In this document: one piece after another, positions 21,816 to 60,795 of the stretch
Numbering within the stretch: position 1 is the stretch's first letter
Layout: the number at the start of each line of letters is the position of its first letter
DNA from: Minisyncoccota bacterium
Lineage (GTDB): Bacteria; Patescibacteriota; Minisyncoccia; Phycocordibacterales; UBA12088
Direction of reading: 5' to 3'
NCBI GenBank assembly: GCA_041920275.1
Contig: JAYRSE010000008.1
Location: forward strand, 1 to 63,177
DNA length: 63,177 nt
The notes under the pieces: generated by a model
The model's database searches: none
Seen by the model: only the letters and a program-made list of their open reading frames with translations
What the model was told of the DNA's origin: nothing
Made by a program: the position numbers and the translations under genes

Positions 21816-22127
21816 ACTGAAGTGCGTGGTGTGTGTGCTCTACAACAGTATATCATCCGCATACGAGCATAGGGTATCGGTCCAACGGTGACATGTGGAT
21901 ACATCTCGTTCGAGCTCCGATACCGAGCATACCTCGACGAACTTCCGGACGTTTGCACGATCTTGCTCTCGCGCGCTTCCCATCACTCGCCGGAAGGTGA
22001 CAGTGCTCGGTGACCGTGCATGCCGAATCGGTGCGCCTTGAATGGTGTACCGATCGTATCCGTTCGTCCGAGAGTGCACCGATTGTGCACAGTATTCTTT
22101 TTTTGTGGTCGGGTGTATGCTGCGTGT

Positions 22128-33699: not shown

Positions 33700-33864
33700 G
33701 TCGTTTTTCAGTATAGCTCGCGATCGCGCAAGCGTACATACACGTATACTTGCAGGAAAGGTCATTTCAGGAGTACGATGTGTGTATGTGTGGCGCATGC
33801 GCCACAGCTCGCGTGCGCGTACGTCGTGTGTACGAGATGAATTTATCAGCCAATGTAATATTCT

Positions 33865-35500: not shown

Positions 35501-35620
35501 ATAACAATCTGGCTGTTATTTCCGTGTTCTGATACACGTTTCTCCGCTCTGATAAGGTGGAATTAACCGGGTTTTGACAACCTTGTGCAAGCGCATGCGT
35601 GCGCGTATTGTGCGAACCGT

Positions 35621-36385: not shown

Positions 36386-36392
36386 ATGGCAT

Positions 36393-42861: not shown

Positions 42862-42872
42862 TACGACACTCT

Positions 42873-44075
42873 ATGAAAGTGCTCATCATAAACAGCATCG
42901 GGTACGAGGGGGGTGGTGCGGAGACCACCATCACCGTGCTCGCACGTAGGCTCAATCTTGACGGACATCAGGTGTGTGTTGTGACGAGCGACCTTGGACC
43001 CGAAAAGGCACACTTCAGTGACCGTGAGTTCCGAGCGTGCGCGGGGCGTTCGTTCGTGGGGAAGGCGATCTGTCGTTTGTGGAACGCGAGTGCGTGCCGG
43101 GTCGTTGCGCAGGTGTTGCGCGAGTTCGATCCCGATATTGTGCAAGTGCACACCACGTACGAGGTTTCGCCGGCGGTGCTTTTCGTACTGCGGAATCACC
43201 CGACGATATTGGTGGTACATGGTGCGGAGGACTACACCAAGGAGCTGTTGTTGTGGGGTTTCCCACCACGGTTCTTTGCCACAGGAGGTGATGATCCTCG
43301 GTACGAGCATTTGACACTTGAAGGGAAGGCGCATTACTGGTACCACATGGCCCTGAGTGTTCCGTTGTATCGGTACTTGCTGCGATATGTTTCGCGCGTG
43401 CTCGTGGTGAGCGAGTTCATGCGCGAGATGTTGGCGCGACAGGGTATCGAGAGTGTATGCATTCCGAACGGTGTCGCATTGCCTGAACCCGTTTCGCTCG
43501 ACCCTGCAAGCAAGGTGGTGCTGTATGCGGGGCGACTTGAGAAGTTGAAAGGGGTCGATCATCTTATCGACGCGATGCCCGAGGTGCTCGCCACAGTGTC
43601 CGATGCGCGACTGGTGGTGGTGGGGACAGGGACCTACGAGGACAGTCTCCGTGAACGAGCCCACCGAAACGGACTCGCGGACCATGTTGAGTGGGTCGGA
43701 CATGTGTCACAGGAGATCCTGAACAAGTACTATGCTGCGGCCGCGCTTGTCGTGGTGCCATCGGTGTGGCCGGAGCCGTTTGGAAAAGTGGGGGTGGAGG
43801 CGATGGCCGTGGGACGGCCGGTCATTGGGAGTGCTGTGGGAGGTGTTCGGGAATGGTTGTCTCACGGGGAGAGCGGCTTTCTGGTTCCACCAAAGGATGC
43901 GCATGCGCTCGCGGAGCGTATCGTGGAACTGCTCAGTGACGTGCGGTTGCGAACCACCATGGGACGGGCTGCGGAAGATCGCGCCCAACAATTTTCCATC
44001 GAGCGATTTTGCACCGCGCTCGCCGATCTGCATCGCACCTGCCTTACGAGAGGGATGAACGGTTCGCGTCGGTGA
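42873..44075 (+). CDS. GT4-type glycosyltransferase
   Basis: 400 aa with a GT-B fold and the EX7E region EPFGKVGVEAMAVGRPVIGSAVGGVREW. Confidence 0.85.
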   Translation: MKVLIINSIGYEGGGAETTITVLARRLNLDGHQVCVVTSDLGPEKAHFSDREFRACAGRSFVGKAICRLWNASACRVVAQVLREFDPDIVQVHTTYEVSPAVLFVLRNHPTILVVHGAEDYTKELLLWGFPPRFFATGGDDPRYEHLTLEGKAHYWYHMALSVPLYRYLLRYVSRVLVVSEFMREMLARQGIESVCIPNGVALPEPVSLDPASKVVLYAGRLEKLKGVDHLIDAMPEVLATVSDARLVVVGTGTYEDSLRERAHRNGLADHVEWVGHVSQEILNKYYAAAALVVVPSVWPEPFGKVGVEAMAVGRPVIGSAVGGVREWLSHGESGFLVPPKDAHALAERIVELLSDVRLRTTMGRAAEDRAQQFSIERFCTALADLHRTCLTRGMNGSRR

Positions 44076-46242
44076 TCTTTCCGAATTTCGTGAACGTACG
44101 CTCGGTAGAGTCGCACATGATGGAGAGCCAGCGCTCGAACTCGGCAGGATCGTTGTATACCGGCCCGATGGGTCCTGCGGGAGTGTTGTTGACGTCAACG
44201 ATGTACACTCGCCCGTCTCGCACATCACGCAACACGTCGAGCTCGCCATAGTCGAGACCCATTTCTTCGCACATGCGAATGATTCGGTCTTGTTCATCCG
44301 GGGTGAGCGTTTGCTCGGTCGGCAGCATCTCCTCCGCTACGGTGAGATTGAAGGGATCGTCCTTTGCGTGGTACCGCTTCATGACGAGCGGTATCTCCCC
44401 GCAAAAGACACTCACTCGCATGTCCACGGGTGGCGCCCCCTCGGGTGCGGTCGGTATGTATTGTTGGTATATGTAGCCCGGCTCGGGATCGCAAGGACAG
44501 TGTACGAGCGTGCCATCATGGACCGCATTGTCTTCAGATTTGCGCACACATGTGCCGTTGTGCGTGCGAGGGTCGATTCGTGTCCGGTATCCGAAGGTGC
44601 GGAAGAACACATCGTCCACCAGTGATTTACCGATGTTCTCACACCCGCCGTTCAGTACGGGATGTCGTTCGCGAAGCGCGGCAAGTGTCTCGTCCGCATA
44701 CCAGACGGTGGCATCCTTGAAGCGCATACGCAGATCGGCGGGCACGGACGGGTCGTTGGTGATGCGCCATCCGAGCTCATGAAAGACCCGGTACACAATG
44801 TGGTAGGTCCGCGGCTTGTCGGGGTAGGTGAGTATGGTGATGTTCGTTCCTCGAGTGCGGCGTGCACGTCGGTATGCCGTGCGCGAAACGAAGTGAGTCT
44901 TCAGCGGCCACACCACTTCTTCCAGGAAGCGAAGGTGTGCGGACCGTGCGAGATGTGGTATGGTCAACCGTTCCGTCAATGCACGAAAGTGGGGGTGTTC
45001 GTACGTGCGCGCCCTTCGCTGAAAAAGCAGATGGCAGGCGATCGCCGAGAGTGTCGCGGCACATAGGTAGGAGACACCGACACCGAACAGGCCCAAGAAC
45101 GAAAAGATCGGGAAAAAAAGTGCGATACCTGCGGCGAAGACGACGCTGCGTGTGAGAAGCGCGCCGGTGTCCTTTGCCATGCGGAAGAGTGTTGCGTACA
45201 GCAGTGACGCCGCGACCGGTATGCCGGAAAGCGTCAGTATGGCGAGCAGCGAAGATCCTTCCGCACTGTAGGCGCCACCGAATGCGGCAAGTATGAAGGG
45301 GCCGAACAAGAGGAGTGTGACGATGGCGGGCAGCAGAAGGAGTGCGACGATGCCCCCCGCGTTCCGTAGATGTGGAGCGGTCGAACCTTCGTCAAAGGAC
45401 GATTCCGCGAGCAGAGCGTTCATGACGCTCGACGGTATGGTGAAGAGAAGCCCGGCGATCAGCATTACGATGGAGTAATATGCCGCCTGTGCGGGGCCGT
45501 ACAGGTTGGTGACGAGTATCGGGAGTACGGCGATCGGGATGTACCCGATAATGTCCGCAAGATAGTTGTCCCTGCTGAAGCGTTTCGTGTGTGCAATGAA
45601 CTCGTGGTCGATGTGGAATGAAGGCCGATAGCCGAATGAGCGCACAAGCGCGGCCATGCTCAAGAGAAAGCCGGACGCTTGTGCGACCGCCCCCGCCAGA
45701 AAGATGCCGAACGCCCCCCACTCGATGAACGCGAACGGCAAGCACACTTTGAGCGCACTGAACGCCGTATCGATCGCAAGCGTGTACTGTGTTTTTCGGT
45801 ATGCGAGAAATATCGCATCGGTGTACATGTTGAGTGCCGCAAAGACCGCAAAAAGTACAAAGAGCGTTGCGGTGAGTGGGCTGTCGGTCAAGGTGGAGAG
45901 TGCGGGTGAGAGGTGGGGGGCGAGAAGGATGTAGGCGCATGCAAGGATGCATGCGGCGATCCCCACGACCGCAAGACCCGTGGTGATGCTCTTGTTCTTG
46001 TCTCGTTCTTTTTCGAGGAAACGGATCGTGGCGGTATCGAAACCGACCAGCGAGAACGTGGCGATGAGTATGAGCGTGGAGGTGAGGGTCGCCGCGAGTC
46101 CGACCTCATGATCGACGTAGAGGCGCGCGGTGACGAGCCAGAAGAGAAAACCGAACCCGGAGGTGACGACCGCCGCAAGGAGCGGGAATATTGAGTTTTT
46201 GAACATGCTTTGCAGCATGAATCCGAGCACTTTGGCGCGCAT
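44044..46242 (-). CDS. fusion protein: Wzx/MOP-type polysaccharide flippase + C-terminal ATP-grasp-like domain
   Basis: The N-terminal 430 aa or so have about 12-14 TM helices with a Wzx-like organisation. The C-terminal 300 aa or so are soluble and end with GLDYGELDVLRDVRDGRVYIVDVNNTPAGP, which resembles the ATP-grasp Mg/ATP-binding end. The domain call is inference. Confidence 0.65.
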   Translation of the reverse strand: MRAKVLGFMLQSMFKNSIFPLLAAVVTSGFGFLFWLVTARLYVDHEVGLAATLTSTLILIATFSLVGFDTATIRFLEKERDKNKSITTGLAVVGIAACILACAYILLAPHLSPALSTLTDSPLTATLFVLFAVFAALNMYTDAIFLAYRKTQYTLAIDTAFSALKVCLPFAFIEWGAFGIFLAGAVAQASGFLLSMAALVRSFGYRPSFHIDHEFIAHTKRFSRDNYLADIIGYIPIAVLPILVTNLYGPAQAAYYSIVMLIAGLLFTIPSSVMNALLAESSFDEGSTAPHLRNAGGIVALLLLPAIVTLLLFGPFILAAFGGAYSAEGSSLLAILTLSGIPVAASLLYATLFRMAKDTGALLTRSVVFAAGIALFFPIFSFLGLFGVGVSYLCAATLSAIACHLLFQRRARTYEHPHFRALTERLTIPHLARSAHLRFLEEVVWPLKTHFVSRTAYRRARRTRGTNITILTYPDKPRTYHIVYRVFHELGWRITNDPSVPADLRMRFKDATVWYADETLAALRERHPVLNGGCENIGKSLVDDVFFRTFGYRTRIDPRTHNGTCVRKSEDNAVHDGTLVHCPCDPEPGYIYQQYIPTAPEGAPPVDMRVSVFCGEIPLVMKRYHAKDDPFNLTVAEEMLPTEQTLTPDEQDRIIRMCEEMGLDYGELDVLRDVRDGRVYIVDVNNTPAGPIGPVYNDPAEFERWLSIMCDSTERTFTKFGKITDANRSSLS

Positions 46243-46409
46243 GTGTATAGTATGCCACAGTGCGGTTGCGGGACGCTATGGACAATCCGGCTGCGGCACT
46301 GTCATTTTTTCGCGCGGCGGGTATACTTGTTGTACCGAATGTGGGTGGCGTGTATCGAATTGATACAATATATATGGTATACGGGTAGCGTCACCTTCCG
46401 GGTGTATCC

Positions 46410-47795
46410 ATGCAGCCATCAGATCGAAACGTGCGAAGACGGGAACGTGTGGTGTTGAGAGGGGTGCGTATGCGCCGTGTTCTGCGTGGTCCGTTCGCTA
46501 TTATATTCGCGATGGTGGGTGTCACGATGCTTGCGGGGCTCGCCCTGTATCTCTGGTTCGTATGGCCGCACCTTGAGCCTTCGCGCGTTGAGAAGGTGGC
46601 GACCACGGCTGCGACCTCCGCTCCATTCATTGCGCCGAAGATCGAGCCCCTTGACGAGCCGGTAGCTCCGATCGTGTCGCCGGAACGGGAAGTGCCGATC
46701 CCGACCGAAGAGGAACGTGAGCGGGAGATACGGGAACGCGACGAACCGGCCGAAAAGCCCGTACCGGTGGCACCTGCGCCGCGCGCGGCTCTGACGGGGG
46801 TAGGACTTGCGTTGGGTGAGACGCTTTCCGTTGTGAGCGAGGACGAGCTTAGGAGAAGGCTGGACGACATGGTGTCGCTCGGTGTGTCCTGGATAAGGAT
46901 CGACCTGGCCTGGAGTAGTATCGAGCCGGTCAAGGGGGAGTACCGTTGGGACTCCACCGACCGTGTTGTGCGTGAAGCGCGCGCTCGGGGTATCCGTGTG
47001 CTCGGTCTCCTTACATACACTCCCGCATGGGCGCGCGCGAGCGAGTGCGCGTATACAAAGATGTGTGAACCGGACGATCCCGACGCGTTCGCTCGTTTTG
47101 CCGCGGTTGCCGCAAAACGCTATGCCGCATCGGGTGTGTACCACTGGGAGGTCTGGAATGAGCCGAACCTGAAGCTCTTTTGGGCATCCGGTGCCAGTCC
47201 GGAACGGTATGCGGTACTGCTTGGACGTACCGCGAGCGCGGTCCGTTCGGCGGTCCCCTCCGCATTCATCGTGTCGGGCGGTCTTGCCGCGGTCGCGACA
47301 AGGAACGGTTCCATGGCGGCGAGGGAATATCTGGAGCGGATGTATGATGCGGGTGCGGGCACCTCGTTCGACGCGGTCGGGTACCATCCGTACTCGTACC
47401 CGCTTGCGCCACACTTCTATGCTGCGTCGAGCCCGTGGAGTCAGATGGCGGAGACCGAGTGGAGTATGCGGAGTGTCATGCGGGCGTACGGTGATACTGC
47501 GAAAAAGATATGGATCACCGAGTATGGGGCACCGACGGGAGGCCCGGGTCTTGCTGCAGACACGAGCGTACACGAACTTCCCACTTCGCCCACCCATGTC
47601 ACCGAGGATTTTCAGGCGATCATGCTGCGCGAAGCGTTCGAGGAGAACACCGCCTACGACTTCACCGGTCCGCTCTTTTGGTACAGCTACCGAGATCTGG
47701 GTACGAGCGATGACACGGTCGAGTACCATTTCGGTCTGATTCGGTCCGACGGGACCGCCAAACCCGCATACAAGGTCTTGCGTTCGATGCGTTAG
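46410..47795 (+). CDS. membrane-anchored clan GH-A glycoside hydrolase (GH5/GH39-like)
   Basis: N-terminal TM, a charged E/R/P linker, then a TIM-barrel-like domain with the acid/base motif HWEVWNEPN and a nucleophile region IWITEYGAP. Confidence 0.75.
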   Translation: MQPSDRNVRRRERVVLRGVRMRRVLRGPFAIIFAMVGVTMLAGLALYLWFVWPHLEPSRVEKVATTAATSAPFIAPKIEPLDEPVAPIVSPEREVPIPTEEEREREIRERDEPAEKPVPVAPAPRAALTGVGLALGETLSVVSEDELRRRLDDMVSLGVSWIRIDLAWSSIEPVKGEYRWDSTDRVVREARARGIRVLGLLTYTPAWARASECAYTKMCEPDDPDAFARFAAVAAKRYAASGVYHWEVWNEPNLKLFWASGASPERYAVLLGRTASAVRSAVPSAFIVSGGLAAVATRNGSMAAREYLERMYDAGAGTSFDAVGYHPYSYPLAPHFYAASSPWSQMAETEWSMRSVMRAYGDTAKKIWITEYGAPTGGPGLAADTSVHELPTSPTHVTEDFQAIMLREAFEENTAYDFTGPLFWYSYRDLGTSDDTVEYHFGLIRSDGTAKPAYKVLRSMR

Positions 47796-48290: not shown

Positions 48291-49964
48291 ATGAACTTAC
48301 ACAGAATACTTTCTTCTCTCGCGATCGTTGTCTTTGCGGGCAGCGCGATCGTCGCGGGGACCGGCGCGTTCTTCTCGGACACCGAGACGTCGTCGGCGAA
48401 TACCTTTACCTCGGGCGCGATCGACCTTACGGTCGACAGCGAGGCGCATTACAACGGCCATGTGTGTGTGGACGGGTTGTGGCAGCTCGATCAAACCGGC
48501 GGTGCATCAGGAGAGCCGGATTATCCGCGGGTCGGTACGCCGTGCGGTGGCACATGGGCTCGCACCGACCTTGGACCGACCAACAAGTTCTTCGACTACG
48601 GTGACCTGAAGCCGGGCGATCACGGGGAGAACACCATCTCGCTTCATGTAGAGAACAACGACGCATGGGCCTGCGCGTACATAGAGAACGTGGTGAGCGA
48701 CGACAACGGTTTGACCGAGCCGGAGGTGGAAGCGGGTGATGCGGACGATGGAGCGGGCAACGGCGAGCTTGCGGATGAGGTGAACTTCTTTGCGTGGGTT
48801 GATGATGGAGACAACGTATGGGAGCCGACGTCCGGAGAGAACCCTCTCTTCTCAAACATTTCCGGAAATGCCATCACGCGAGCATACCCGCTGCACACAC
48901 CCGCAGGTGGCGTAAGTAACACGCCGATGGCCCCCGGACAGACCCGGTACATCGGTCTGTACTGGTGTTATGGCGCCATTGACACAGCGAACAATGCGCT
49001 TACGTGCAACGGTCAACCCGTATCAAACGTATCGCAGACCGACACGATGACCGCGGATATCACCTTCTACGCGGAGCAGTCGCGAAATAACCCCGACTTC
49101 GTGTGTCCTCCCGCAGAAGATGTCGTACAGGACAACAATGGTGACCGGCGCACTGCGGTTGGTGCGGCTCTCGCGTCGTATGACGCCCCTGCATGCTCGG
49201 TCACGGTGGAGGTCGGCTCATCGATCCAGTCCGCAATTAACGGGGCGGCACCCGGGGCTACGGTTTGTGTGGGTCCGGGCACTCACGAAGACGATGATTA
49301 TCCTCTTCGAGTGAATAAGGATAATATGACGCTCGCGTCTGTCGCAGGTGCCGCAACGACGATCCTGACAGGTGGTGTTGTCGCCGATAACGATGGTGTA
49401 AAAATTGCCGGGTTCACTATCCCGAGTTCGAACGCCCTCGGTGAGACGTTTGGTGTGTACATCAACACGGGTGCAGATGGGGTGCAGGTGATGTATAACG
49501 ATTTGAATGGGCCCGGTGTGACAAGTGGACGCGGTGTGGTCAGTGCAATCGGTGTCACGAGCGCAGTCATCGCACAAAACGAAATTAGAAATTATCTGAC
49601 GGGTGTGTTCCTGAACCCATCGTCTGACATGGTGGTTGAATTGAACGATCTGATTGCAAATGGTGTAGGTTCTGCGAATGATAATCCGACCAACAACATC
49701 GTTCGCAAGAATCAGATCACGGGGAACGCTGTTGAGGGAGTCGGTGTGTTGTCCGTTGGTCCGGAATCCTTAACCGTAACGTCAAACAACATCTTTGGAA
49801 ATGGTCCGGGTGCCGGAGATGAACTTAACAATTACGGACTAGACGCTGTGAGTGCGGAGAACAACTGGTGGGGAGATGCGACCCCTGCTGATGAGATCGG
49901 TGGTGTCGGTGCAGCATTGGTAGACTTTACACCGTTCGAACTCTCGCCATTTGCCCTGAACTAG
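48291..49964 (+). CDS. TasA/camelysin-like protein with SipW-type signal peptide fused to a parallel beta-helix domain
   Basis: The N-terminus MNLHRILSSLAIVVFAGSAIVAGTGAFFSDTETSSANTFTSGAIDL, then DLKPGDHGENTISL and NDAWAC, parallels B. subtilis TasA (GGGTWAAFNDIKS...FASGTLDL...NLKPGD). The C-terminal half has PbH1-like repeats (NEIRNYLTGVFL, NQITGNAVEGVGV, SNNIFGNG). Confidence 0.8.
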   Translation: MNLHRILSSLAIVVFAGSAIVAGTGAFFSDTETSSANTFTSGAIDLTVDSEAHYNGHVCVDGLWQLDQTGGASGEPDYPRVGTPCGGTWARTDLGPTNKFFDYGDLKPGDHGENTISLHVENNDAWACAYIENVVSDDNGLTEPEVEAGDADDGAGNGELADEVNFFAWVDDGDNVWEPTSGENPLFSNISGNAITRAYPLHTPAGGVSNTPMAPGQTRYIGLYWCYGAIDTANNALTCNGQPVSNVSQTDTMTADITFYAEQSRNNPDFVCPPAEDVVQDNNGDRRTAVGAALASYDAPACSVTVEVGSSIQSAINGAAPGATVCVGPGTHEDDDYPLRVNKDNMTLASVAGAATTILTGGVVADNDGVKIAGFTIPSSNALGETFGVYINTGADGVQVMYNDLNGPGVTSGRGVVSAIGVTSAVIAQNEIRNYLTGVFLNPSSDMVVELNDLIANGVGSANDNPTNNIVRKNQITGNAVEGVGVLSVGPESLTVTSNNIFGNGPGAGDELNNYGLDAVSAENNWWGDATPADEIGGVGAALVDFTPFELSPFALN

Positions 49965-49980
49965 TCCTCTCTAGCCGTAT

Positions 49981-50007
49981 CCCTCACATTCCTTGCGAAT
50001 GTGAGGG
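49981..50007 (+). terminator. hairpin after the first TasA-like gene
   Basis: CCCTCACATT-CCTTGCG-AATGTGAGGG forms a 10-bp stem with no clear T-run. Confidence 0.5.
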
Positions 50008-50031
50008 ACGGGCTGGCGGGGAACCGACGGC

Positions 50032-50087
50032 AAAAATACTAGTATTAGTACAGTGATTCTTCAGAAAAAATACTGATATTAATACAG
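50032..50087. repeat. two direct copies of an AT-rich motif related to the 6722 palindrome arm
   Basis: AAAATACTAGTATTAGTACA matches AAAATACCAGTATTAGTACC at 18/20. A second, more diverged copy AAAATACTGATATTAATACA follows. They lie 120-170 bp upstream of the ATG at 50207. Confidence 0.6.
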
Positions 50088-50206
50088 TAATTACTTACCA
50101 CCTCATGCTCCTCGGACGACTCTCTGGTAATGAGGGACACGTGTGGAGCAGAGCATAAGGACGTGTTATTCACCAGGTGCCGGGAAACACCGCAACTATC
50201 GAACGT

Positions 50207-51673
50207 ATGAAAAGCATCACCCACAGCGCGCTCACCCTTGCGACCGCGGCCGCACTCATCGGGGTGGGGGCGACAGGAGCGTTCTTTTCCGACACGGAGA
50301 CTTCCTCCGGCGGCACCTTTGCCGCCGGAGTGATCGACCTTATGGTCGGTAATGAGTCCTACTACAACGGCAATGTCTGCACGGATGTAGATCCCGGTCC
50401 GGGTGAGGACTTCCGGTGGCAAGGCGCTACAGAGTATCCCGAGCCGGACACGCCGTGCGTCGTAAGCTGGGCGGACACCACGAAGTCGCTTGTTGGCAAG
50501 CTCTTTTTCGCTTTTGCCGATCTGAAGCCGGACGACGAGGGTGAGGATACGATCTCGCTTACGGTCGATACCAACGATGCGTGGGCGTGCATGGAGGTAT
50601 CGCTCACCTCGGACGACGACGTGTCATCGGTCGAGCCGGAGCTGGACGCGGGGGATTTGTCTGAGGACACCGAGAACATGTGGGATGGTGAGCTTGCGCG
50701 CGTGCTCCAGTTCATTTGGTGGGCGGACGATGGTGACAATGTGCTCGAGAGCGATGAGTATCCAACCCGCGTCCTTTCGGACGGTGTGCAGACATTGCAC
50801 GACCTTGCCACGTCGACCGGCTCGTTCCAGTTGGCGCTTGCCGATAGTGTCACTAATGTCTGGACCGGCACCGCCGGCCCGCTGCTTGCGGGCGAGACGT
50901 ACCACATCGGCAAGGCGTGGTGCTTTGGGACGCTCACGCCCGCACCGGTTTTGGCGGGGCAGGGTGTAAACCCTTCGGTAGCTTCAGGTATCGCGTGCGA
51001 CGGCACCATGATACCCGATGTGAACAGCATTCAGACCGACGGCACCACGCTCGATGTATCGTTCATCGCTCACCAAGCACGCCATGATAGTGCGTACCGT
51101 TGTCCCGATCCATACGAGCCACCGGTTTCGTGTGAGATCGTGCAGACGTATGCGGATGAGGTGGTGTTTGTCGATCAGGGTTTGCTTCGTGACGGCATTA
51201 ACGCAGTGACGTTGGGGCGAAGTGATACGAACAAGGTACTTGGTGCGCCACAGTCGCTCGGTACACCATATGACGACACTACGAACCCGACCATACTCAA
51301 CGGTTTCTTCTCGCTCGGTTTTCCACTCGGTGGGAATACGGCGGAAATCATACTCTCTTTCAATGACAACTATGTGGTGAACGGACCGGGAATGGACCTG
51401 AAGCTTTGGGAGGTGACCGGAGGTACGAAGTATCCGGAGGAGCGAGTCGATGTGTACGTGGGTAATACGCCTACCGGTCCATGGACGCAGGTTGGGTTTG
51501 GAGTCTCACGTGATGCCGAGGTTGACCTTGGTGCTGTGGTCGCGGCGCGCTACGTGCGCGTCGTGGACGCGAGCTACCTCACCGATTTTCCACTCCCGAC
51601 GTATGCGGATGCCGACGGATTCGACCTCGATGCCGTACAAGCCCTGAACTGTATCGTTTCGCCTGCCCGATGA
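50207..51673 (+). CDS. TasA/camelysin-like protein with SipW-type signal peptide fused to a C-terminal beta-sandwich-like domain
   Basis: MKSITHSALTLATAAALIGVGATGAFFSDTETSSGGTFAAGVIDL, DLKPDDEGEDTISL and NDAWAC make it a clear paralogue of 48291..49964 over the first 200 aa or so. The C-terminal 170 aa or so are distinct (…DLKLWEVTGG…RYVRVVDAS…GFDLDAV). Confidence 0.8.
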   Translation: MKSITHSALTLATAAALIGVGATGAFFSDTETSSGGTFAAGVIDLMVGNESYYNGNVCTDVDPGPGEDFRWQGATEYPEPDTPCVVSWADTTKSLVGKLFFAFADLKPDDEGEDTISLTVDTNDAWACMEVSLTSDDDVSSVEPELDAGDLSEDTENMWDGELARVLQFIWWADDGDNVLESDEYPTRVLSDGVQTLHDLATSTGSFQLALADSVTNVWTGTAGPLLAGETYHIGKAWCFGTLTPAPVLAGQGVNPSVASGIACDGTMIPDVNSIQTDGTTLDVSFIAHQARHDSAYRCPDPYEPPVSCEIVQTYADEVVFVDQGLLRDGINAVTLGRSDTNKVLGAPQSLGTPYDDTTNPTILNGFFSLGFPLGGNTAEIILSFNDNYVVNGPGMDLKLWEVTGGTKYPEERVDVYVGNTPTGPWTQVGFGVSRDAEVDLGAVVAARYVRVVDASYLTDFPLPTYADADGFDLDAVQALNCIVSPAR

Positions 51674-51764
51674 TCGTCGTTCCCCTCTCTCCTTTCAGGA
51701 GGGGGGGGTGGTGGGTCCCGCTCGCACACCTGATCTCCGTACGCTGAAACCCGACACCATTTCC

Positions 51765-52454
51765 ATGAAGCACCTTCGCACCTACGCCAAATACCTGTTG
51801 CTCGTCGAGCTCGCGCTCGTGGCGGTACTTGTGGTCGGTCTGTTGGTGCCACTTCCCGGCAAGGTGGAATTCAAGATAGTGCAGAGTGGCTCGATGGAGC
51901 CCGTGATGCCGGTCGGTAGTATGGTCGCCATTGTGCCACATGCCGAGTATGCGGTGGGGGACATCATCACCTTTGGCGATGACACCAGAACGCGCATTCC
52001 CACTTCGCACCGCGTCGTGGGGATCACCCGTGAGGGCGGTGCGCTGCACTACCTTACCAAGGGAGATGCCAATGAAGAGGCGGACAATGCACCCGTGCCC
52101 CATGGCGCGATCATAGGCGCGGTCGAGCTTGTCGTGCCGCGGTTGGGGTACGTGCTGCACTTTGCGCGTTCCGAGCGCGGGTTCTTCTTGATGGCGGTCG
52201 TTCCCGCCGTGCTCATCATGGTGGACGAGGTGCTCACGATCGCCGCCATACTGCGCAGGAGACGAGGGACCGGTGCGCGACCGAGCGATGTGCGGCATCA
52301 TCATTTTGTTACGCATTCCGACACGCAAGGGCGAGCATCCGACGTGACGAGTCGCGATCGTTCGCAGGTGAAACCACCCGCATCCGCACTGCCGCCGCGT
52401 CGACCGTGTCATGTGTCCGTCGACGGCATGCGTATCGTTCTGCGCTCGGTTTAG
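51765..52454 (+). CDS. sipW: SipW-type (archaeal/ER-type) signal peptidase I with a basic C-terminal tail
   Basis: TM, then IVQSGSMEPVMPVGSMV (catalytic Ser), PTSHRVVGI (His) and YLTKGDANEEAD, followed by a second TM. The tail of about 70 aa is R/H/S-rich. I set the start at the ATG at 51765. Confidence 0.85.
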   Translation: MKHLRTYAKYLLLVELALVAVLVVGLLVPLPGKVEFKIVQSGSMEPVMPVGSMVAIVPHAEYAVGDIITFGDDTRTRIPTSHRVVGITREGGALHYLTKGDANEEADNAPVPHGAIIGAVELVVPRLGYVLHFARSERGFFLMAVVPAVLIMVDEVLTIAAILRRRRGTGARPSDVRHHHFVTHSDTQGRASDVTSRDRSQVKPPASALPPRRPCHVSVDGMRIVLRSV

Positions 52455-52457
52455 ACC

Positions 52458-53621
52458 ATGTTCCCATTCCAACACACGAACCACGTACTCGACCTACGCC
52501 GCAAGCGGCGCACTGCGTTCCGTGCGCTGCGTGGATCGACCCGGTCGCATGGTGACTTGTCGTTCGCGGCGGGCGGCCCCTCGAACAATGAGGGTGGGGT
52601 GGAGTTGTCGAGCGACCCATGTTCGATCGCTCGACCGTCGCGCGAGAGCGAGGCGCCCGGTTTCGCACAGACACTCGTACGACCGTTTGCCCACATGTTC
52701 GCACTCGCGGCGTTCGTCATCGCCGGTGGCTATGTGGTGTATACGCTCGGTCCATCGCTTGCGTACTTTTCTGACACCGAGGGTTCGACCGCGAGTGCCA
52801 TGAGTACCGGTTCGCTCCTGGTCGACGCGCACGGTGGCGGATCCTTCGGACTCTCTTGCAATGATCGCGAGGAGTTGTCCGTTTCCGTGACGCTCGACGG
52901 CACGCGTACGAGTGCCTATGCGATACGTGCCGAATTCGTACCCGGGACCGACAACGGGTTCTGTGAGATGCTGAAGCTCTCAGCCGTGCAGCGCGGGGAG
53001 GAGCGGTATGCGGGTGATCTTCTCGGTTTTTCATTGCATGACGTCACCGATGCGAGCGACTGGAGCTTTACGGTTTCCGCAGACGACCTGTCCGTGCTGC
53101 CGGATGGTGCGATGTGCGGGGTCGCGCTCGTCTTCGAGGCGTACTGTCCCGCATTGGGTTATCTGGGTGGCGGCTTCACCGATCGCGATGCGGTCATGTT
53201 TACGTTCGTCAAAGAGCCGTGCGGCGGGGATGAGCCATGCGATCCCGGATGTTGCGGGAATGTCGATATCACGATCGATCAGACCATCACGAGCATTACC
53301 AACAACACGGTGGTGTCGGGTGCGAACAGCGGGGGCAACACGGTCGTCGGAGGCGGGACGCTGGTTACGGGTGAGAGCGGAAATGTGATAACGATCGACG
53401 GCGGGACACAGAGCAGTGTGGTGGACATCGATGTCGCGTGCGGGTGTGCCGAATGTGACCCGTGTGCAGACGCACAGGTAAGTGCTGAGCCGATTTCCGC
53501 AGCCGGCACGCTCTTTGATGAGACCGGAGAGACCCCCCACGCGGGAACGGCAAGTATGGAAACCTTGATAGGGTCGGTACGTGAAGAGCTCGCCGAGCGC
53601 CTGAATGGAGTGCGGAGGTGA
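52458..53621 (+). CDS. third SipW-signal protein (TapA/TasA-like position) with a Cys-rich, G-x-N-repeat C-terminus
   Basis: A hydrophobic segment is followed by LGPSLAYFSDTEGSTASAMSTGSLLVD, the same AxFSDTE signal-type motif. The C-terminus has CGGDEPCDPGCCG, ITNNTVVSGANSGGNTVVGGGTLVTGESGN and CGCAECDPC. The start is ambiguous: ATG 52458 is 3 nt after the sipW stop, and ATG 52695 is the alternative. Confidence 0.6.
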   Translation: MFPFQHTNHVLDLRRKRRTAFRALRGSTRSHGDLSFAAGGPSNNEGGVELSSDPCSIARPSRESEAPGFAQTLVRPFAHMFALAAFVIAGGYVVYTLGPSLAYFSDTEGSTASAMSTGSLLVDAHGGGSFGLSCNDREELSVSVTLDGTRTSAYAIRAEFVPGTDNGFCEMLKLSAVQRGEERYAGDLLGFSLHDVTDASDWSFTVSADDLSVLPDGAMCGVALVFEAYCPALGYLGGGFTDRDAVMFTFVKEPCGGDEPCDPGCCGNVDITIDQTITSITNNTVVSGANSGGNTVVGGGTLVTGESGNVITIDGGTQSSVVDIDVACGCAECDPCADAQVSAEPISAAGTLFDETGETPHAGTASMETLIGSVREELAERLNGVRR

Positions 53622-53750
53622 TAACTGGAGTGGCGTCCGATACCTGCAGTTCGTGCGCTTCCGGTGACCGTTCGCACCGAACGTTCATGTGCATATGCGA
53701 TACGTTGTGTGCAAAGAAAAGCCGCCGAGATTCGGCGGCGGTAAGCGTGT

Positions 53751-54293
53751 TTACGGATGTTCGTCGAACTTGGGACACGGACGAAGTCCGAAGAACAGAC
53801 CGACGGTGCCGAGGCCGAGCAGGGCCATGTGTCGCAAGACCCCATCGCGATCCAGGCGTCTCCTGGAGGTGTGCATGGTAAGGTCATGTTTGTACACGAC
53901 CTTCTGACGCGCTTTGCGTACTATGGCCATTGCGAGCGCCACATCCTCGAGCATGCACGCACCCCGCGTATCGAAGCCACCGACACGCAAAAATGATGCT
54001 CGCCACACGAACAGGTTCGCGCCGACCGCAGTCGCTCCACGGAACATCGTTCCGAAAAAACGCACAAGGGCGGCATAGACCCGCTGCAGTCGCATGAGGT
54101 GCTTCCGCTCGAAGTCCGCGGGACCGGTCACCATGCCGATGCGAGTATCCTCGATGATCTCATGCGGCGCTATGGGGTTTGTGCGAACACGTGCTCCAGT
54201 GTCTGGCGTACACCCGCTTCTTCGTTCAGTGTGGGAACGACCACTGAGACCCGGATCATGTTCGGATCCCGTTTTGCAGCTTATTTCACACAT
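53751..54293 (-). pseudogene. N-terminally truncated family 2 glycosyltransferase remnant
   Basis: It contains the distal GT2 region (IGMVTGP..., GANLFVWRASFLRVGGFDTRGACMLEDVALAMAI, HTSRRRLDRDG). The first 80-100 aa, including the nucleotide-binding/DxD part, are absent, and the upstream gap to the next gene is only about 80 bp. Confidence 0.5.
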
Positions 54294-57918: not shown

Positions 57919-60795
57919 TTACTTGAAGATTGAGAAGAGGGATGAGACTCGCTCACGGATGCTCGTCCAGAGTCCGCCGGTTGCGGCAAGCTGCGCCTCC
58001 GTTTCCGTGCGGACCTCTTCCTTCGCAACGACAACCTGCTCTTGTATCGCACGTTCGATCGCCTCCGTGGCGGCGACCAGCGTTTCTTCTTCCTTGATCA
58101 CCGGTGCGGCACCGATGCGCTCGAACGTCTCGTTCGGGATCGGTGCACCTTGCTCTCTCGCGGTGTTCACGACCGATTTGGTGCTTGCGATCTCACGCTC
58201 TTGTTCGGTGTCGAGAGGGAAATCCCTTCCGCACCATATCTCGTTCACTTTCTTCTGTGTCGTGTAGTACACGTAACCGGTGCTTTGTGTCATGCCCCAC
58301 GGGGTGAGCACGTCGGCCGCATACTTCCGCTGGAAGGTGTGGACCGCATCGAGCGTTTGGAGATCGAACATGCCCGTGATGGCGACGTTCGTCGCGTCCT
58401 CGCGCGATCGAAGGAACATCTGCAGCTTACTTACCTGCGTCGGGTCATTCGCCGCTTCGTAGCGCAGGTAGCCGGTGAGCAATGCGTCACAAGCAAGAGG
58501 TTCTGCCGTGGTGACCACCGCACTCGTCACGGTGACCGGGAACGATGCGACGGGAGACTCGATCGGTTTGCTTCTAAGGTCCTCTCCGGTACTCGCACTC
58601 ACAAAGGCTTTGTTGGTGTACGTGCCGGGTGTGGTGGACGAGCTGAAGAATGCGGTGTAACGCACAATAACGGTTTCATCTTTCGCTATCTTCTCCAAGC
58701 TCCAACGTTGTTCGTGGACCACGTCTCCCGCATCGTTGTAGATGGTGTCGAGGAGCAGGGTATGGTACATCGGATCGCCCGTGTTCGTGACCGTGATCGT
58801 GTATTCCACGCTCGAGCTTGCCGTTATGGAGCTTGCGCTTGCCGTTTTCACTATCGACAGGCCGTTCTTGTAGGCGGTGGTGCCGCGAAGCAATGATCCT
58901 CCTCCACCCCCTCCTCGGGTCACCACGCTTATCGTATCGGTGTTGTTGGTCGTGTCCGCGTCCGGCTCATCGCTCTCCACGGTGAAGTCGGTGTCGATCG
59001 AGGTCTCTGCGCCCACGAGCTTACTGATACATGCGGGAAGGGTGATCGTCTTACTTCCGCCTGCGGGAATGCGTCCGACATGGTATCGAAGCCGTCCTTC
59101 CGTATCTTCCACCATGCCGTCGATCTTTTGGAAGAGCGTGTTGTGTCTTCCGGTGAGATAGACATTGCGTGCCGATGCGTCGCCGAAATTGTTGAGGGTC
59201 ACCTCGTAGCTGAAGCAGGTGCCGGGACGTACCGTGGGAGGAGTGATCGCGCGCGCACCGACCCAGAGATCGGGACGGCCGAACGTGATGTTCCCGTTCC
59301 AGTCGCCGAGTATGTTGAAGATGGCGAGCACCCAGTTGCGACCGAGCACATTGGTGTTGACCACATTCACCACGTTGGCGCTCGCTTGTGCGTCACCGGT
59401 CGCAATACTCGCTTCGTCGCCGGCCTCGGCCATGTTCTCGCCCGTGAGCGCGTACACGTTGAAGCGATTACGTACCTCGGCGGTGTTGGTGTTCGTGACC
59501 GAAAGCTCGTCGAGGTCGGTGACCGGAGCACCTACGGCGTTCGGAAGTCCCTCCCAGAAGATCTCGATACCGGAAGCGGTTTCGCGCCAACTCATACCGT
59601 CGGGTAGGCCGAACACCTTGCCGTTCCAGTCGCCACTCACACGAAAGAGCAAAGAAATGGAGTCTCCGAATATGGTGGTGTTGACTCGATCCACGATGTT
59701 GGTGTTCGCCTGCGCGTCACCGGTCGACATGTCGGCCTGCGCACCGCTCGCCTCGTTGTTGCCGGAATCCGCCACCGTACTGCCGATCGTGGAAACATCC
59801 GCGGTGTTCGTAGTGTCGTATGTGACCGTGCTTCCCGCAGGGACGGTCGAGCCGCCCTTGAGGAGCTCGTAGAACCAGTCGGCACCCGGGAAGATGATAT
59901 CGCCGTTACCTCCACCAAAGCCGTTCATGGTAAGGAGGAGATAGTTGGCATTCGTGATGTTCGTGTTCACGACGTTCATGATGTTCGCACCCGCGTACGC
60001 GTCACCGGAGGTGATCCGTGCGTCACCCGTAAGTGCGCTCGCCCTGCTTGCACCGGTCGTTGCGCCTACGGTGAGATCGTTCTCGACGACCGCATTGTTG
60101 GTGTTCGTGAGCGAAAGCGACGTGTTGCCGGTGCAGGTGCCATCCTCGATCGAGCAGGTATCGCCCGTTGCAAGGGTCGGTCGGTCGCCGGTGAGTACCG
60201 CAAAGAGCGAACGCAGGTCGAATGCCACGTTACCCATGAGCATGTTCAGGAAATAGAGAAGGCCGCGTGCGTTGAAGACGTTGGTGTTCACCACGTTGAG
60301 GACGTTCGCGGTCGAAATCGCGTAACCGGTCGTGATGATCGCGTTCGTGCCGGCAACGGCAAGGTTGTCGCCGGTGCCACTGAGGACGCTCGCGTTCGTG
60401 CTTGCCGTCGCATCGTTCTCATGCGACACCACGCCTTCGGTGGCACCGGACACGGAGGTGTCGTTCGTGTTCTGTTCAGTTTCGATATCGGCGCTCGAAC
60501 TCGCGTTGCCGGTTGCGATAGTGACATCGTCTGAATTCTCGCTCGCGCCTCCCGTATGGTTCCCGACATCGGTCCCCGCAGATCCATCGGGTGTACTCTC
60601 GTCCACAATGGTCGAGGAAGATTCATCGGGGTCTTGTGTGGTCTGTTCGGGCGCGGTCGACTCCGACGTCTGCGTGGACTCTTCGGCGTAGAGGGGTGTG
60701 CCCGAGAACGCGAAAAAGCACCCGAGCACGAGCGCAAACGTAAGGTAGGCGAACGTGGTGTGTGCACTGTCAGAACGGAAAAAGTGATAAGGCAT
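57919..60795 (-). CDS. giant secreted protein: four TGDA-x-A-x-AN-VVN-VVNTN modules + two DUF11/CARDB-like Ig-type domains + peptidoglycan-binding domain
   Basis: Signal peptide (FALVLGCFFAFSGTPLYA|EE). Four modules of about 90 aa end in STANVLNVVNTNVF, AGANIMNVVNTNIT, ANTNIVDRVNTTIF and ASANVVNVVNTNVL. Then come CFSYEVTLNNFGDASARNVYL and VEYTITVTNTGD. The C-terminal LQMFLRS...ITGMFDLQTLDAVHTFQRKY resembles PG_binding_1. Confidence 0.8.
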   Translation of the reverse strand: MPYHFFRSDSAHTTFAYLTFALVLGCFFAFSGTPLYAEESTQTSESTAPEQTTQDPDESSSTIVDESTPDGSAGTDVGNHTGGASENSDDVTIATGNASSSADIETEQNTNDTSVSGATEGVVSHENDATASTNASVLSGTGDNLAVAGTNAIITTGYAISTANVLNVVNTNVFNARGLLYFLNMLMGNVAFDLRSLFAVLTGDRPTLATGDTCSIEDGTCTGNTSLSLTNTNNAVVENDLTVGATTGASRASALTGDARITSGDAYAGANIMNVVNTNITNANYLLLTMNGFGGGNGDIIFPGADWFYELLKGGSTVPAGSTVTYDTTNTADVSTIGSTVADSGNNEASGAQADMSTGDAQANTNIVDRVNTTIFGDSISLLFRVSGDWNGKVFGLPDGMSWRETASGIEIFWEGLPNAVGAPVTDLDELSVTNTNTAEVRNRFNVYALTGENMAEAGDEASIATGDAQASANVVNVVNTNVLGRNWVLAIFNILGDWNGNITFGRPDLWVGARAITPPTVRPGTCFSYEVTLNNFGDASARNVYLTGRHNTLFQKIDGMVEDTEGRLRYHVGRIPAGGSKTITLPACISKLVGAETSIDTDFTVESDEPDADTTNNTDTISVVTRGGGGGGSLLRGTTAYKNGLSIVKTASASSITASSSVEYTITVTNTGDPMYHTLLLDTIYNDAGDVVHEQRWSLEKIAKDETVIVRYTAFFSSSTTPGTYTNKAFVSASTGEDLRSKPIESPVASFPVTVTSAVVTTAEPLACDALLTGYLRYEAANDPTQVSKLQMFLRSREDATNVAITGMFDLQTLDAVHTFQRKYAADVLTPWGMTQSTGYVYYTTQKKVNEIWCGRDFPLDTEQEREIASTKSVVNTAREQGAPIPNETFERIGAAPVIKEEETLVAATEAIERAIQEQVVVAKEEVRTETEAQLAATGGLWTSIRERVSSLFSIFK

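What the first reader, a model, noticed from the sequence alone, without database searches (positions are those of the whole stretch)
48291..53621. TasA/SipW-type fibre locus with three modular SipW-signal proteins
Four co-directional genes make up this locus.
- Two are clear paralogues (48291 and 50207). They share a SipW-class signal peptide and a TasA/camelysin-like N-terminal core of about 200 aa (GTGAFFSDTETS..TF..G.IDL, DLKP[GD]D, NDAWAC).
- Their C-termini are unrelated: parallel beta-helix repeats in one, a beta-sandwich-like domain in the other.
- Next comes an archaeal/ER-type signal peptidase (SGSMEP, SHRV, GDAN).
- Three nt after its stop, a third protein starts. It has the same AYFSDTEGS signal-type motif and a Cys-rich, G-x-N-repeat C-terminus.

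In Bacillus, tapA-sipW-tasA builds biofilm fibres, and TasA-like subunits also form archaeal bundling pili. In those systems the subunit is essentially the bare core. Here every core is fused to a distinct putative enzymatic or adhesive module. As far as I know, that arrangement has not been described.

I infer a donor-strand-type fibre or surface display scaffold that carries different tips.
Basis: partly seen in the sequence, partly recalled or inferred. Interest (0 to 1): 0.8.

Follow-up and report, generated by a model that had tools for sequence, protein, structure and literature searches.

The report
TasA-like modular surface proteins with SipW
This is a real operon from an ultrasmall (Patescibacteria/CPR) bacterium in which a dedicated archaeal-type signal peptidase sits beside three secreted proteins that share the TasA "donor-strand" N-terminus but carry different outer modules; the layout is common in that phylum yet apparently undescribed, and fibre formation is inferred, not shown.

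Summary
The four genes are real. p1 and p2 are paralogues (38% identity over about 290 aa). p3 is an archaeal/ER-type signal peptidase I (TIGR02228, 101.8 bits). p4 carries the same A|YFSDTE site.

The p1/p2 core is about 255-280 aa, not 200. Sequence profiles match TasA/camelysin only over the signal peptide plus first strand. A confident core-only model has the TasA fibre (8AUR) as its single significant PDB match (E 1.9e-4), but TM is only 0.34-0.38.

The mature N-terminus aligns with TasA's donor strand. It is the most conserved stretch of the family, and AlphaFold cannot place it in a monomer.

The arrangement is not unique:
- At least 398 species-level genomes encode a relative, and the best 79 loci are essentially all labelled Patescibacteria.
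- All 66 loci with enough downstream DNA have 1-5 tandem core genes (64 of 66 have 2-5) followed by the peptidase.
- 43 of 155 cores are bare.

New here: p3 and p4 share one frame, split by a single conserved TAG. In 14 relatives peptidase and p4 module are one protein.

Verdict: a new variant of the TasA/SipW superfamily. Polymerisation is plausible but untested. Interest 0.6.

The parts
48291..49964 (+). p1: SipW-type signal peptide (aa 1-26, 48291-48368), conserved donor-strand-like segment (aa 27-47, 48369-48431), enlarged TasA-like jelly-roll core (to about aa 282, 49136), flexible linker, and a right-handed parallel beta-helix (about aa 290-557, 49158-49961).
   Evidence: ORF. TIGR04088 scores 23.5, above the cut-off of 19. 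NosD Pfam match. AlphaFold pLDDT 84.6, with residues 23-42 and 282-285 below 50. Foldseek gives beta-helix CAZymes plus 8aur_A. The core-only model has 8aur_A as its top and only significant match.
49980..50008 (+). Perfect 12-bp hairpin (5-nt loop) 16 nt after the p1 stop. It is a possible terminator or RNA-stabilising element and has no T-run.
50032..50092 (+). Two 27-nt direct repeats (AAAAATACTnnTATTAnTACAGTnATT, 34-nt spacing) in the p1-p2 spacer. They are a candidate promoter or operator for p2-p3-p4.
   Evidence: No sigma-70 consensus was found in the region.
50207..51673 (+). p2: signal peptide (aa 1-25, 50207-50281), donor-strand-like segment and TasA-like core (aa 26 to about 300, 50282-51106), and a CPR-specific C-terminal domain of unknown fold (about aa 301-488, 51107-51670).
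   Evidence: BLASTP against p1. TIGR04088 scores 16.7, below the cut-off. The C-terminal domain has no Pfam or PDB match and only 2 hits in the word-indexed search, but it recurs in core-family proteins of about 20 related loci.
51765..52454 (+). p3: archaeal/ER-type (SipW-like) signal peptidase I with N- and C-terminal TM segments, catalytic SGSMEP, SHRV and GDAN motifs, and a basic, low-complexity C-terminal tail.
   Evidence: TIGR02228 scores 101.8 against a cut-off of 51.85. The Bacillus SipW equivalog scores 99.6, below its cut-off of 190. Motifs are invariant in 15 homologues. Hydropathy analysis.
52452..52454 (+). Single in-frame TAG separating p3 from p4, followed by ACC ATG. The position aligns to the linker of single-ORF peptidase-p4 fusions in relatives.
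   Evidence: The identical TAG is present in an independent contig, L080, which is 93.8% identical at nucleotide level overall.
52458..53621 (+). p4: 78-aa basic leader, TM segment (aa 79-98, 52692-52751), SLA|YFSDTEGS site (mature start aa 103, 52764), a roughly 150-aa domain with two conserved Cys distantly related to the N-terminal part of TasA, then a Cys-rich G/N/T-rich C-terminus.
   Evidence: It has 108 distant homologues sharing truncated-query residues 16-173. The family profile hits TasA 8AUR at E 4.6e-4. hhalign against TasA gives 61 columns at 87.5% probability. Of 61 members, 14 match Peptidase_M73 and 18 match cognate_SipW.
53721..53739 (.). GC-rich hairpin about 100 nt after the p4 stop, scored as a terminator on the minus strand for the convergent gene 53751-54293. 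It marks the end of the locus.

Best explanation
The locus is a Patescibacteria-type member of the TasA/SipW superfamily: a Sec-dependent surface-protein system with its own signal peptidase.

**Shown**
- p1, p2 and p4 carry SipW-class signal peptides ending in small residues at -3 and -1 (TGA|FF, TGA|FF, SLA|YF). This matches TasA's verified TWA|AF site.
- p3 is an archaeal-type Ser/His signal peptidase I.
- The p1 and p2 cores are homologous to each other.
- p1 ends in a CASH/NosD-type parallel beta-helix.

**Inferred**
1. p3 cleaves the three precursors and exposes the near-invariant N-terminus FFSDTETSxxNTFxxGxIDL.
2. This segment is homologous to the TasA donor strand (TasA F29 and F39 align to conserved Phe). 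It is the most conserved part of the family and has no confident place in the monomer model.
3. It therefore inserts into the jelly-roll core of a neighbouring subunit, as in TasA, AbpA, AbpX and Tafi.
4. The result is a short chain or fibre in which each subunit carries its own flexibly linked outer module. In p1 this is a glycan-binding or glycan-cleaving beta-helix. In p2 it is a CPR-specific domain.
5. p4 acts as the TapA/TafF-like initiator or membrane anchor. It combines a TM segment, a donor-strand motif and a small TasA-related domain, and in many relatives it is covalently fused to the peptidase.

**Likely role.** The locus lies in a cell-envelope island (glycosyltransferases, flippase, GH5-like protein, PBP, macroglobulin) of a presumably episymbiotic bacterium. 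The likely role is attachment to, or processing of, host or own surface glycans.
For: **Peptidase identity.**

**Signal peptides.**
- p1 passes the SipW-cognate signal model.
- 18 of 61 p4-family members also pass it.

**Core fold and family.**
- p1 and p2 are homologous at E 6e-50.
- The core-only AlphaFold model has pLDDT 87.2 and pTM 0.82.
- Its only PDB match at E<=1e-3 is the TasA fibre 8aur_A (E 1.9e-4, probability 1.00, 200 columns).
- The same match appeared with the full-length model.

**Donor-strand segment.**
- hhalign of the family against TasA aligns the signal peptide plus residues 28-48. The TasA sequence was verified 100% against 8AUR.
- TasA residues 28-38 are the experimentally defined donor strand, with F29, I32 and F39 as contacts (PMC9674648).
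- p1 27-47 is the most conserved 20-residue window of the core family: 3.73 bits against 2.6 bits for the rest.
- Residues 23-42 have pLDDT below 50 in the full-length model, and residues 21-40 have block-mean pLDDT of about 50 in the core-only model.

**Flexible module.** Full-length pTM of 0.57 against 0.82 for the core alone, plus the low-pLDDT linker 282-285, fit a flexibly tethered module.

**p4 relation to TasA.**

**Locus conservation.**
- All 66 of 66 related loci with more than 1.6 kb downstream have 1-5 tandem core genes (64 of 66 have 2-5) followed by the peptidase. The median gap is 21.5 nt.
- 43 of 155 cores are bare and are candidate major subunits.

**Fusions.** 14 loci have single-ORF peptidase-p4 fusions that keep a cleavage-like site.

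**Precedent.** Tafi and AbpX loci already show a two-domain tip, a TM-plus-jelly-roll anchor and a dedicated SPase.
Against: - No oligomer was modelled or observed.
- Sequence profiles link the core to TasA only through the first 47 or so columns.
- The family profile finds no TasA among PDB sequences.
- With the N-terminus removed, hhalign against TasA is not significant (E 0.12).
- Foldseek TM-scores are 0.34-0.38 with RMSD 7.8 A, below the usual same-fold threshold.
- This particular locus has no bare core.
- A 190-270 aa globular module sits where TasA's C-terminus makes an inter-subunit contact (PMC9674648). That could hinder TasA-like packing.
- The strong N-terminal conservation could partly reflect recognition by the dedicated peptidase.
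- p4's role is assigned by analogy only. The A2 profile found no TapA chain in the PDB.
Confidence: 0.5

Rival explanations
1. These are non-polymerising secreted or surface proteins. The dedicated peptidase only handles an unusual cleavage site with aromatic residues at P1'/P2'. The conserved N-terminus is a recognition or quality-control tag. The core is a stalk or wall-binding domain for individually acting enzymes and adhesins.
For: - Every core in this locus carries a large module.
- 112 of 155 cores in related loci carry one too.
- The C-terminal modules are typical of stand-alone exoproteins: beta-helix CAZyme-like, VWA, and SpaA-type prealbumin domains.
- The TasA cleavage site with Phe at P2' is known to need SipW rather than LepB (abstract of PMC10269814, listed).
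- The structural match to TasA has low TM.
Against: - Conservation extends about 20 residues past the cleavage site and exceeds that of the folded core. This is more than a peptidase site normally needs.
- That segment aligns with the experimentally proven TasA donor strand.
- AlphaFold leaves it unplaced in the monomer.
- Tandem arrays of 2-5 paralogues, often with a bare core, resemble pilus operons.
Confidence: 0.3
2. This is a covalently cross-linked polymer, like the Clostridium perfringens SipW-dependent BsaA protein. Subunits would be joined by intermolecular isopeptide bonds rather than, or in addition to, donor-strand exchange.
For: - The core has invariant Lys107 and several invariant Asn, Asp and Gln residues: N123, N175, N246, Q249, D105, D110.
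- One p4-family member weakly matches the BsaA family model TIGR04090 (E 0.0063).
- BsaA is SipW-dependent and forms intermolecular isopeptide bonds (title and abstract of PMC11580942).
Against: - p1, p2 and p4 themselves do not match BsaA models.
- The conserved acidic and amide residues could equally bind Ca2+, as described for AbpX and cannulae.
- No structural test was possible.
Confidence: 0.08
3. The cores are camelysin-type (peptidase M73) metalloproteases, as the Pfam and NCBI names suggest.
For: Peptidase_M73 is the Pfam family hit. Database names include 'CalY family protein'.
Against: - The match covers only profile positions about 3-54 of 196, meaning the signal peptide and first strand. 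It is below the gathering score in p1 and p2.
- No HExxH-type motif is among the invariant columns.
- The structural match is to a structural fibre protein.
Confidence: 0.03

Closest known systems
Bacillus subtilis tapA-sipW-tasA operon (TasA donor-strand-exchange fibres, TapA nucleator)
   Same: - A dedicated archaeal-type signal peptidase is encoded among its substrates.
[quoted passage not shown]
- The core has a jelly-roll-like fold, and TasA is its only significant PDB match.
- There is a second, non-homologous protein with a similar N-terminus: TapA there, p4 here.
   Different: - The core is about 60 aa larger, with big insertions and six conserved Cys.
- The Pfam M73 match is limited to the first 50 or so positions.
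- p3 scores 99.6 against the 190-bit cut-off of the Bacillus SipW equivalog.
- The cores carry 190-270 aa C-terminal modules.
- There are 2-5 tandem paralogues per locus in the family.
- p4 shows no detectable similarity to any TapA chain in the PDB.
- Gene order is core-core-sipW-p4.
Haloarchaeal Tafi loci (TafD signal peptidase, TafE/TafA pilins, two-domain tip TafC, TM + jelly-roll anchor TafF; PMC12337348, PMC11821415)
   Same: [quoted passage not shown]
   Different: - It is archaeal and often Tat-dependent.
- It has an accessory DUF5305 protein that is absent here.
- It has one tip per locus, rather than most subunits being modular.
- No peptidase-anchor fusion is reported.
AbpA/AbpX biomatrix loci (PMC9245690; bioRxiv 10.64898/2026.01.04.697558)
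   Same: - It belongs to the TasA superfamily.
- It has an adjacent TIGR02228-type peptidase and long signal sequences.
- Its loci encode predicted tip, minor-subunit and anchor components.
- Acidic residues near the donor strand are proposed to bind Ca2+. Invariant D30 and E32 here are compatible with that.
   Different: - No sequence or structural match to these proteins was recovered here.
- The AbpX-associated peptidase is described with ten TM helices, against two here.
- The anchors there are SLH or LPXTG proteins.
Chaperone-usher two-domain tip adhesins (e.g. FimH)
   Same: The concept is the same: a pilin-type domain that joins the fibre, fused to a functional outer domain.
   Different: - The fold family and secretion route are unrelated, and it needs a chaperone and usher.
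- The functional domain is N-terminal, and the tip lacks a donor strand.
- This is an analogy only.

Membership tests
TasA/CalY (Pfam PF12389 Peptidase_M73) | Match to the family profile over the domain, at or above the gathering score | tested here: not met
   p1 scores 21.5 bits and p2 19.1 bits against a cut-off of 22.5. Only profile positions 13-50 and 6-51 of 196 are matched, and p4 has no match. In 9 of 10 relatives scanned the match is likewise confined to profile positions 3-54.
TasA/CalY (TasA superfamily in the structural sense) | Jelly-roll beta-sandwich core resembling TasA | tested here: inconclusive
   For the core-only model (pLDDT 87.2), 8aur_A is the top and only hit with E<=1e-3 (E 1.9e-4, probability 1.00). 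However, TM is 0.34/0.38 and RMSD is 7.8 A. The profile search of PDB sequences finds no TasA.
TasA/CalY (TasA superfamily) | N-terminal donor strand of the mature protein, with conserved hydrophobic contacts (TasA F29, I32, F39) | tested here: met
   At sequence level only. hhalign aligns the family N-terminus to TasA 1-48 (E 1e-4, probability 58%). F28 and F39 of p1 align to TasA F29 and F39, and I32 aligns to Thr. This segment is the most conserved in the family.
TasA/CalY (TasA superfamily) | Polymerisation by donor-strand exchange | not testable with these tools
The only indirect sign is that the N-terminal segment is unplaced in monomer models.
SipW-dependent signal peptide proteins (TIGR04088 cognate_SipW) | Score at or above the curated cut-off of 19 bits | tested here: met
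   p1 scores 23.5 and meets it. p2 scores 16.7, below the cut-off. p4 is not detected, although the motif SLA|YFSDTEGS is present and 18 of 61 p4-family members pass.
Archaeal/ER-type signal peptidase I (TIGR02228) | Score above the cut-off, and catalytic Ser / His / Asp-box motifs | tested here: met
   It scores 101.8 bits against a cut-off of 51.85. SGSMEP, PTxHR and GDAN are invariant in 15 aligned sequences. Two TM segments flank the domain.
Bacillus SipW equivalog (NF046067) | Score above the equivalog cut-off of 190 bits | tested here: not met
   It scores 99.6 bits. It is SipW-like in type but not an orthologue by NCBI's criterion.
Right-handed parallel beta-helix / CASH (NosD, Beta_helix) | Profile match and beta-helix fold in the p1 C-terminus | tested here: met
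   PF05048 scores 23.9 against a cut-off of 23.6. The A1 profile matches NosD 7O0Y at E 6.4e-10. Block-mean pLDDT is 92-98 over residues 291-550. Foldseek probability is 1.00 to GH87, PL6, PL9, AlgG and AlgE4. Catalytic residues were not examined.
TapA (TasA nucleator) | Sequence similarity of p4 to TapA | tested here: not met
   The p4-family profile searched against all PDB sequences at E<=10 returns TasA but no TapA chain. Any TapA-like role rests only on the shared N-terminal motif and the locus position.
Tafi TafF-type anchor | [quoted passage not shown] | tested here: inconclusive
   A TM segment at aa 79-98 is followed by a domain distantly related to the N-terminal strands of TasA. The fold of the p4 domain was not modelled, and no sequence comparison with TafF was made.

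The most novel reading that the evidence does not exclude
The signal peptidase would itself be the assembly platform. In this reading the peptidase-p4 fusion (split here by one TAG) is a membrane-anchored initiator. Signal-peptide cleavage and donor-strand polymerisation are then coupled in one complex. The product is a heteropolymeric fibre in which essentially every subunit carries its own enzyme or adhesin: beta-helix glycanase, VWA, SpaA-like domain, or CPR-specific domains. Episymbiotic Patescibacteria would use this fibre to grip and remodel the host envelope.
Probability: 0.17. Interest if true: 0.85.

Novelty: new variant of a known kind. Interest (0 to 1): 0.6.

Why it matters
Patescibacteria/CPR make up a large share of bacterial diversity and mostly live attached to other cells. 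How they hold on to and exploit hosts is largely unknown beyond type IV pili.

This locus type occurs in hundreds of their species-level genomes. It offers a concrete, testable candidate for a second surface-appendage system.

It would also extend TasA-type donor-strand assembly in two directions:
- subunits that each display a different enzyme or adhesin;
- a signal peptidase fused to its own putative substrate or anchor.

There is a practical point too. Database labels such as 'CalY/camelysin family' for these proteins rest on about 50 N-terminal residues only. They should not be read as protease or bona fide TasA assignments.

Tried and rejected
- **phmmer of p1 and p2 against PDB sequences:** nothing relevant.
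- **Family profile A1 against PDB:** only the beta-helix part hits (NosD, PL6); no TasA.
- **hhalign of the core without its N-terminus against TasA:** only a non-significant, co-linear match of the last strand (E 0.12, probability 0.5%). Not used as evidence.
- **hhalign of the core family against the p4 family:** only 36 columns, covering the signal end plus the strand. The p4 domain is therefore not a copy of the p1/p2 core.
- **Word-indexed homologue searches:** p4 gave 1 hit and p2's C-terminus gave 2 hits. Both were nearly empty. Relatives appeared only with the exhaustive HMMER search or by scanning fetched loci.
- **Pfam and NCBIfam on p4:** no family.
- **Sigma-70 promoter scan:** zero sites.
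- **Single-linkage clustering of C-terminal tails:** it merged VWA, SpaA-like and p2-type tails into one cluster. It is used only for the bare-versus-extended count, not for domain classes.
- **Sequencing error as the cause of the TAG:** rejected, because an independent, 6%-divergent contig has the same codon.
- **Alternative genetic code:** considered and not pursued. The stop is TAG, not TGA, and all other genes read normally with table 11.
- **Camelysin protease reading:** rejected (see rival explanations).

Full report
**1. What is in the sequence**

Four co-directional ORFs occupy 48291-53621.
- p1: 557 aa.
- p2: 488 aa from the ATG at 50207.
- p3: 229 aa from the ATG at 51765.
- p4: 387 aa.

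A six-frame scan of the whole 63 kb window finds the motif [FYW][FYLN]xD[T..]Ex[STA] exactly three times. All three are in p1, p2 and p4.

p1 and p2 are 38% identical over about 290 residues (E 6e-50), and share nothing after that. p4 resembles them only across the end of the signal peptide and the next 20 or so residues.

A perfect 12-bp hairpin follows p1. Two 27-nt direct repeats lie in the 240-nt p1-p2 spacer. p2, p3 and p4 are packed closely: 91 nt separate p2 from the p3 ATG, and 3 nt separate p3 from p4. This suggests p1 and p2-p3-p4 may be separate transcription units.

**2. The peptidase**

- p3 passes the archaeal-type signal peptidase I model TIGR02228 (101.8 bits, cut-off 51.85).
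- It scores 99.6 bits on the Bacillus SipW equivalog, below that model's 190-bit cut-off.
- SGSMEP, PTxHR and GDAN are invariant across 15 aligned homologues.
- Hydrophobic segments flank the catalytic domain.

This part of the finding is solid.

**3. Is the p1/p2 core TasA-like?**

*Sequence evidence is narrow.*
- Pfam Peptidase_M73 matches only residues 13-51 (p1) and 4-51 (p2), corresponding to profile positions 13-50 and 6-51 of 196. Both fall below the gathering score.
- The same restriction holds in relatives that databases label with PF12389.
- A 39-sequence family profile finds only NosD and PL6 (the beta-helix) among PDB sequences, and no TasA.
- hhalign of the 110-sequence core alignment against TasA aligns only TasA 1-48 (E 1e-4, probability 58%).
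- Without the N-terminus, nothing significant remains.

*Structural evidence is better but not strong.*
- A core-only AlphaFold model (110 sequences, pLDDT 87.2, pTM 0.82) has the TasA fibre 8aur_A as its single PDB match at E<=1e-3: E 1.9e-4, probability 1.00, 200 columns.
- TM-scores are only 0.34/0.38.
- The same chain was the only non-beta-helix hit with probability 1.00 for the full-length model.

I conclude the core is very probably a divergent, enlarged (about 255-280 aa) TasA-superfamily jelly roll. It has large insertions and six conserved Cys. It is not a member of PF12389 by that family's own criterion.

**4. The N-terminal segment**

- By alignment with TasA's verified mature start (A28, after TWA), cleavage should fall at TGA|FF in p1 and p2 and at SLA|YF in p4.
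- The following segment aligns with TasA 28-46. Residues 28-38 are the donor strand, and F29, I32 and F39 are its contacts (PMC9674648).
- TasA F29 and F39 correspond to conserved Phe in the family.
- This segment is the most conserved 20-residue window of the core family: 3.73 bits per column against 2.6 for the rest.
- AlphaFold nevertheless leaves it unstructured and at low confidence in both monomer models.

That combination is what one expects of a strand that binds in trans. It is suggestive, not proof.

**5. The outer modules**

- p1 residues about 290-557 form a high-confidence right-handed beta-helix. It resembles NosD/CASH proteins and polysaccharide lyases, hydrolases and epimerases.
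- A low-confidence linker joins it to the core. Full-length pTM is 0.57 against 0.82 for the core alone.
- p2's roughly 190-aa C-terminal domain has no Pfam or PDB match. It recurs in core-family proteins of about 20 related loci. It is therefore a conserved, lineage-specific domain whose fold I could not test.

**6. p4**

- An exhaustive HMMER search found 108 distant relatives. They share the signal-peptide end and a roughly 150-aa domain with two invariant Cys.
- Of 61 members scanned, 14 match Peptidase_M73, 18 match the SipW-cognate signal model, and 21 carry lamin-tail domains.
- The family profile hits TasA in the PDB (8AUR, E 4.6e-4) over the first 52 or so mature residues.
- hhalign gives 61 columns at 87.5% probability.
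- It is not homologous to the p1/p2 core beyond the shared N-terminal 36 columns.

**7. The unexpected point**

- p3 and p4 are in one reading frame, separated by a single TAG (GTT TAG ACC ATG).
- The same TAG is present in an independent contig that is 93.8% identical overall. It is therefore not an assembly error.
- In 14 of 66 related loci, the peptidase and a p4-family module form one ORF of 474-731 aa.
- Those fusion proteins run: peptidase, C-terminal TM, basic linker with an MMDI-like motif, third TM, a conserved [ST][VIL][SA]|Y[FP]xDxExS site, then the p4 domain.
- Topology puts that site on the same side of the membrane as the active site. Self-processing is possible, and so is permanent tethering.
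- I found no description of such a fusion. A 2026 preprint notes only DUF5305-SPase fusions.

**8. Distribution**

- A scan of one genome per GTDB species found 398 loci encoding a relative of the core.
- The best 79 are MAGs that are essentially all labelled as Patescibacteria lineages: Paceibacteria, Kaiserbacteria, Nomurabacteria, Saccharibacteria-labelled bins, WWE3 and others. A few bins carry other automatic labels.
- All 66 loci with more than 1.6 kb of downstream DNA have 1-5 tandem core genes (64 of 66 have 2-5) followed by the peptidase on the same strand. The median gap is 21.5 nt.
- The 13 loci without a peptidase all end within 1.6 kb.
- Of 155 full-length cores, 43 are bare and 112 carry C-terminal extensions. 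These include beta-helix, VWA, SpaA-type prealbumin domains and several unnamed clusters.

The 'core plus variable module' design is therefore the family norm. However, about half of the loci also have a bare core, which this window lacks.

**9. Literature**

- PF12389-matching proteins in Patescibacteria were noted in passing in 2022 (PMC9245690).
- Searches of the held library found no paper describing their architecture or loci.
- The general logic is already described for archaeal Tafi and for AbpX/AbpA loci: TasA-superfamily strand-donation pilins with a dedicated SPase I, two-domain tip proteins and TM-plus-jelly-roll anchors.

**10. Judgement**

The SipW-type secretion and TasA-superfamily affinity are well supported. 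'Fibre with different tips' is a reasonable but untested inference. The claim of uniqueness fails at family level.
- I rate it a new variant of a known kind: a CPR-specific enlarged core, pervasive module fusions, and peptidase-substrate/anchor fusion or split.
- Confidence in the full mechanistic model, including donor-strand assembly, is about 0.5.
- Confidence that these are SipW-type-processed TasA-superfamily surface proteins is about 0.85.

Noticed in passing
window 52452-52457; L080 2584-2589; fused ORFs in L010, L016, L019, L025, L032, L033, L034, L037, L038, L043, L045, L052, L064, L076: p3 and p4 are one reading frame interrupted by a single TAG, which is conserved in an independent strain. 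In 14 related loci the signal peptidase and the p4-family module are a single protein that keeps a cleavage-like site after a third TM. The peptidase is thus fused to its own putative substrate or anchor.
   Followed up: partly
window 49980-50008 and 50032-50092: A perfect 12-bp hairpin follows p1. Two 27-nt AT-rich direct repeats lie 34 nt apart in the p1-p2 spacer. They are a possible terminator and a promoter or operator.
   Followed up: no
window 22020-28628 (+): A 2202-aa bacterial alpha-2-macroglobulin (MG2, bait region, A2M, bMG6, bMG10, Big_5) lies next to a class A PBP (31633-33879, minus strand) and a subtilase with a Big_1 domain (33865-35373). This is a large investment for a presumably small genome.
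   Followed up: no
window 35585-47795: A surface-glycan island lies immediately upstream of the locus. It contains GT2, GT4 fused to a polysaccharide deacetylase, a double GT4 (834 aa), a DUF2206 membrane protein, another GT4, a Polysacc_synt flippase with an unexplained roughly 300-aa cytoplasmic C-terminal extension (44044-46242, minus strand), and a GH5-like protein with a TM anchor.
   Followed up: no
window 57919-60795 (-): A 958-aa secreted protein has DUF11 domains and at least four copies of a 'TGDAxAxANxxNVVNTN'-type motif. A similar G/N/T-rich pattern appears in p4's C-terminus (about aa 270-320). Any relationship was not tested.
   Followed up: no
related loci, e.g. L012 2994-3884, L023 9944-10837, L026 9947-10795: Bare core proteins (about 275-310 aa, no C-terminal module) are often the first gene of the array in related loci. 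They are candidate major subunits. None is present in this window.
   Followed up: partly
L080 versus window 49879-54282: The independent contig is 93.8% identical overall with 31 gap openings, yet p4 is 99% identical at protein level and p3 shows a single substitution. Divergence therefore appears concentrated in the p2 region and the spacers, but this was not quantified.
   Followed up: no
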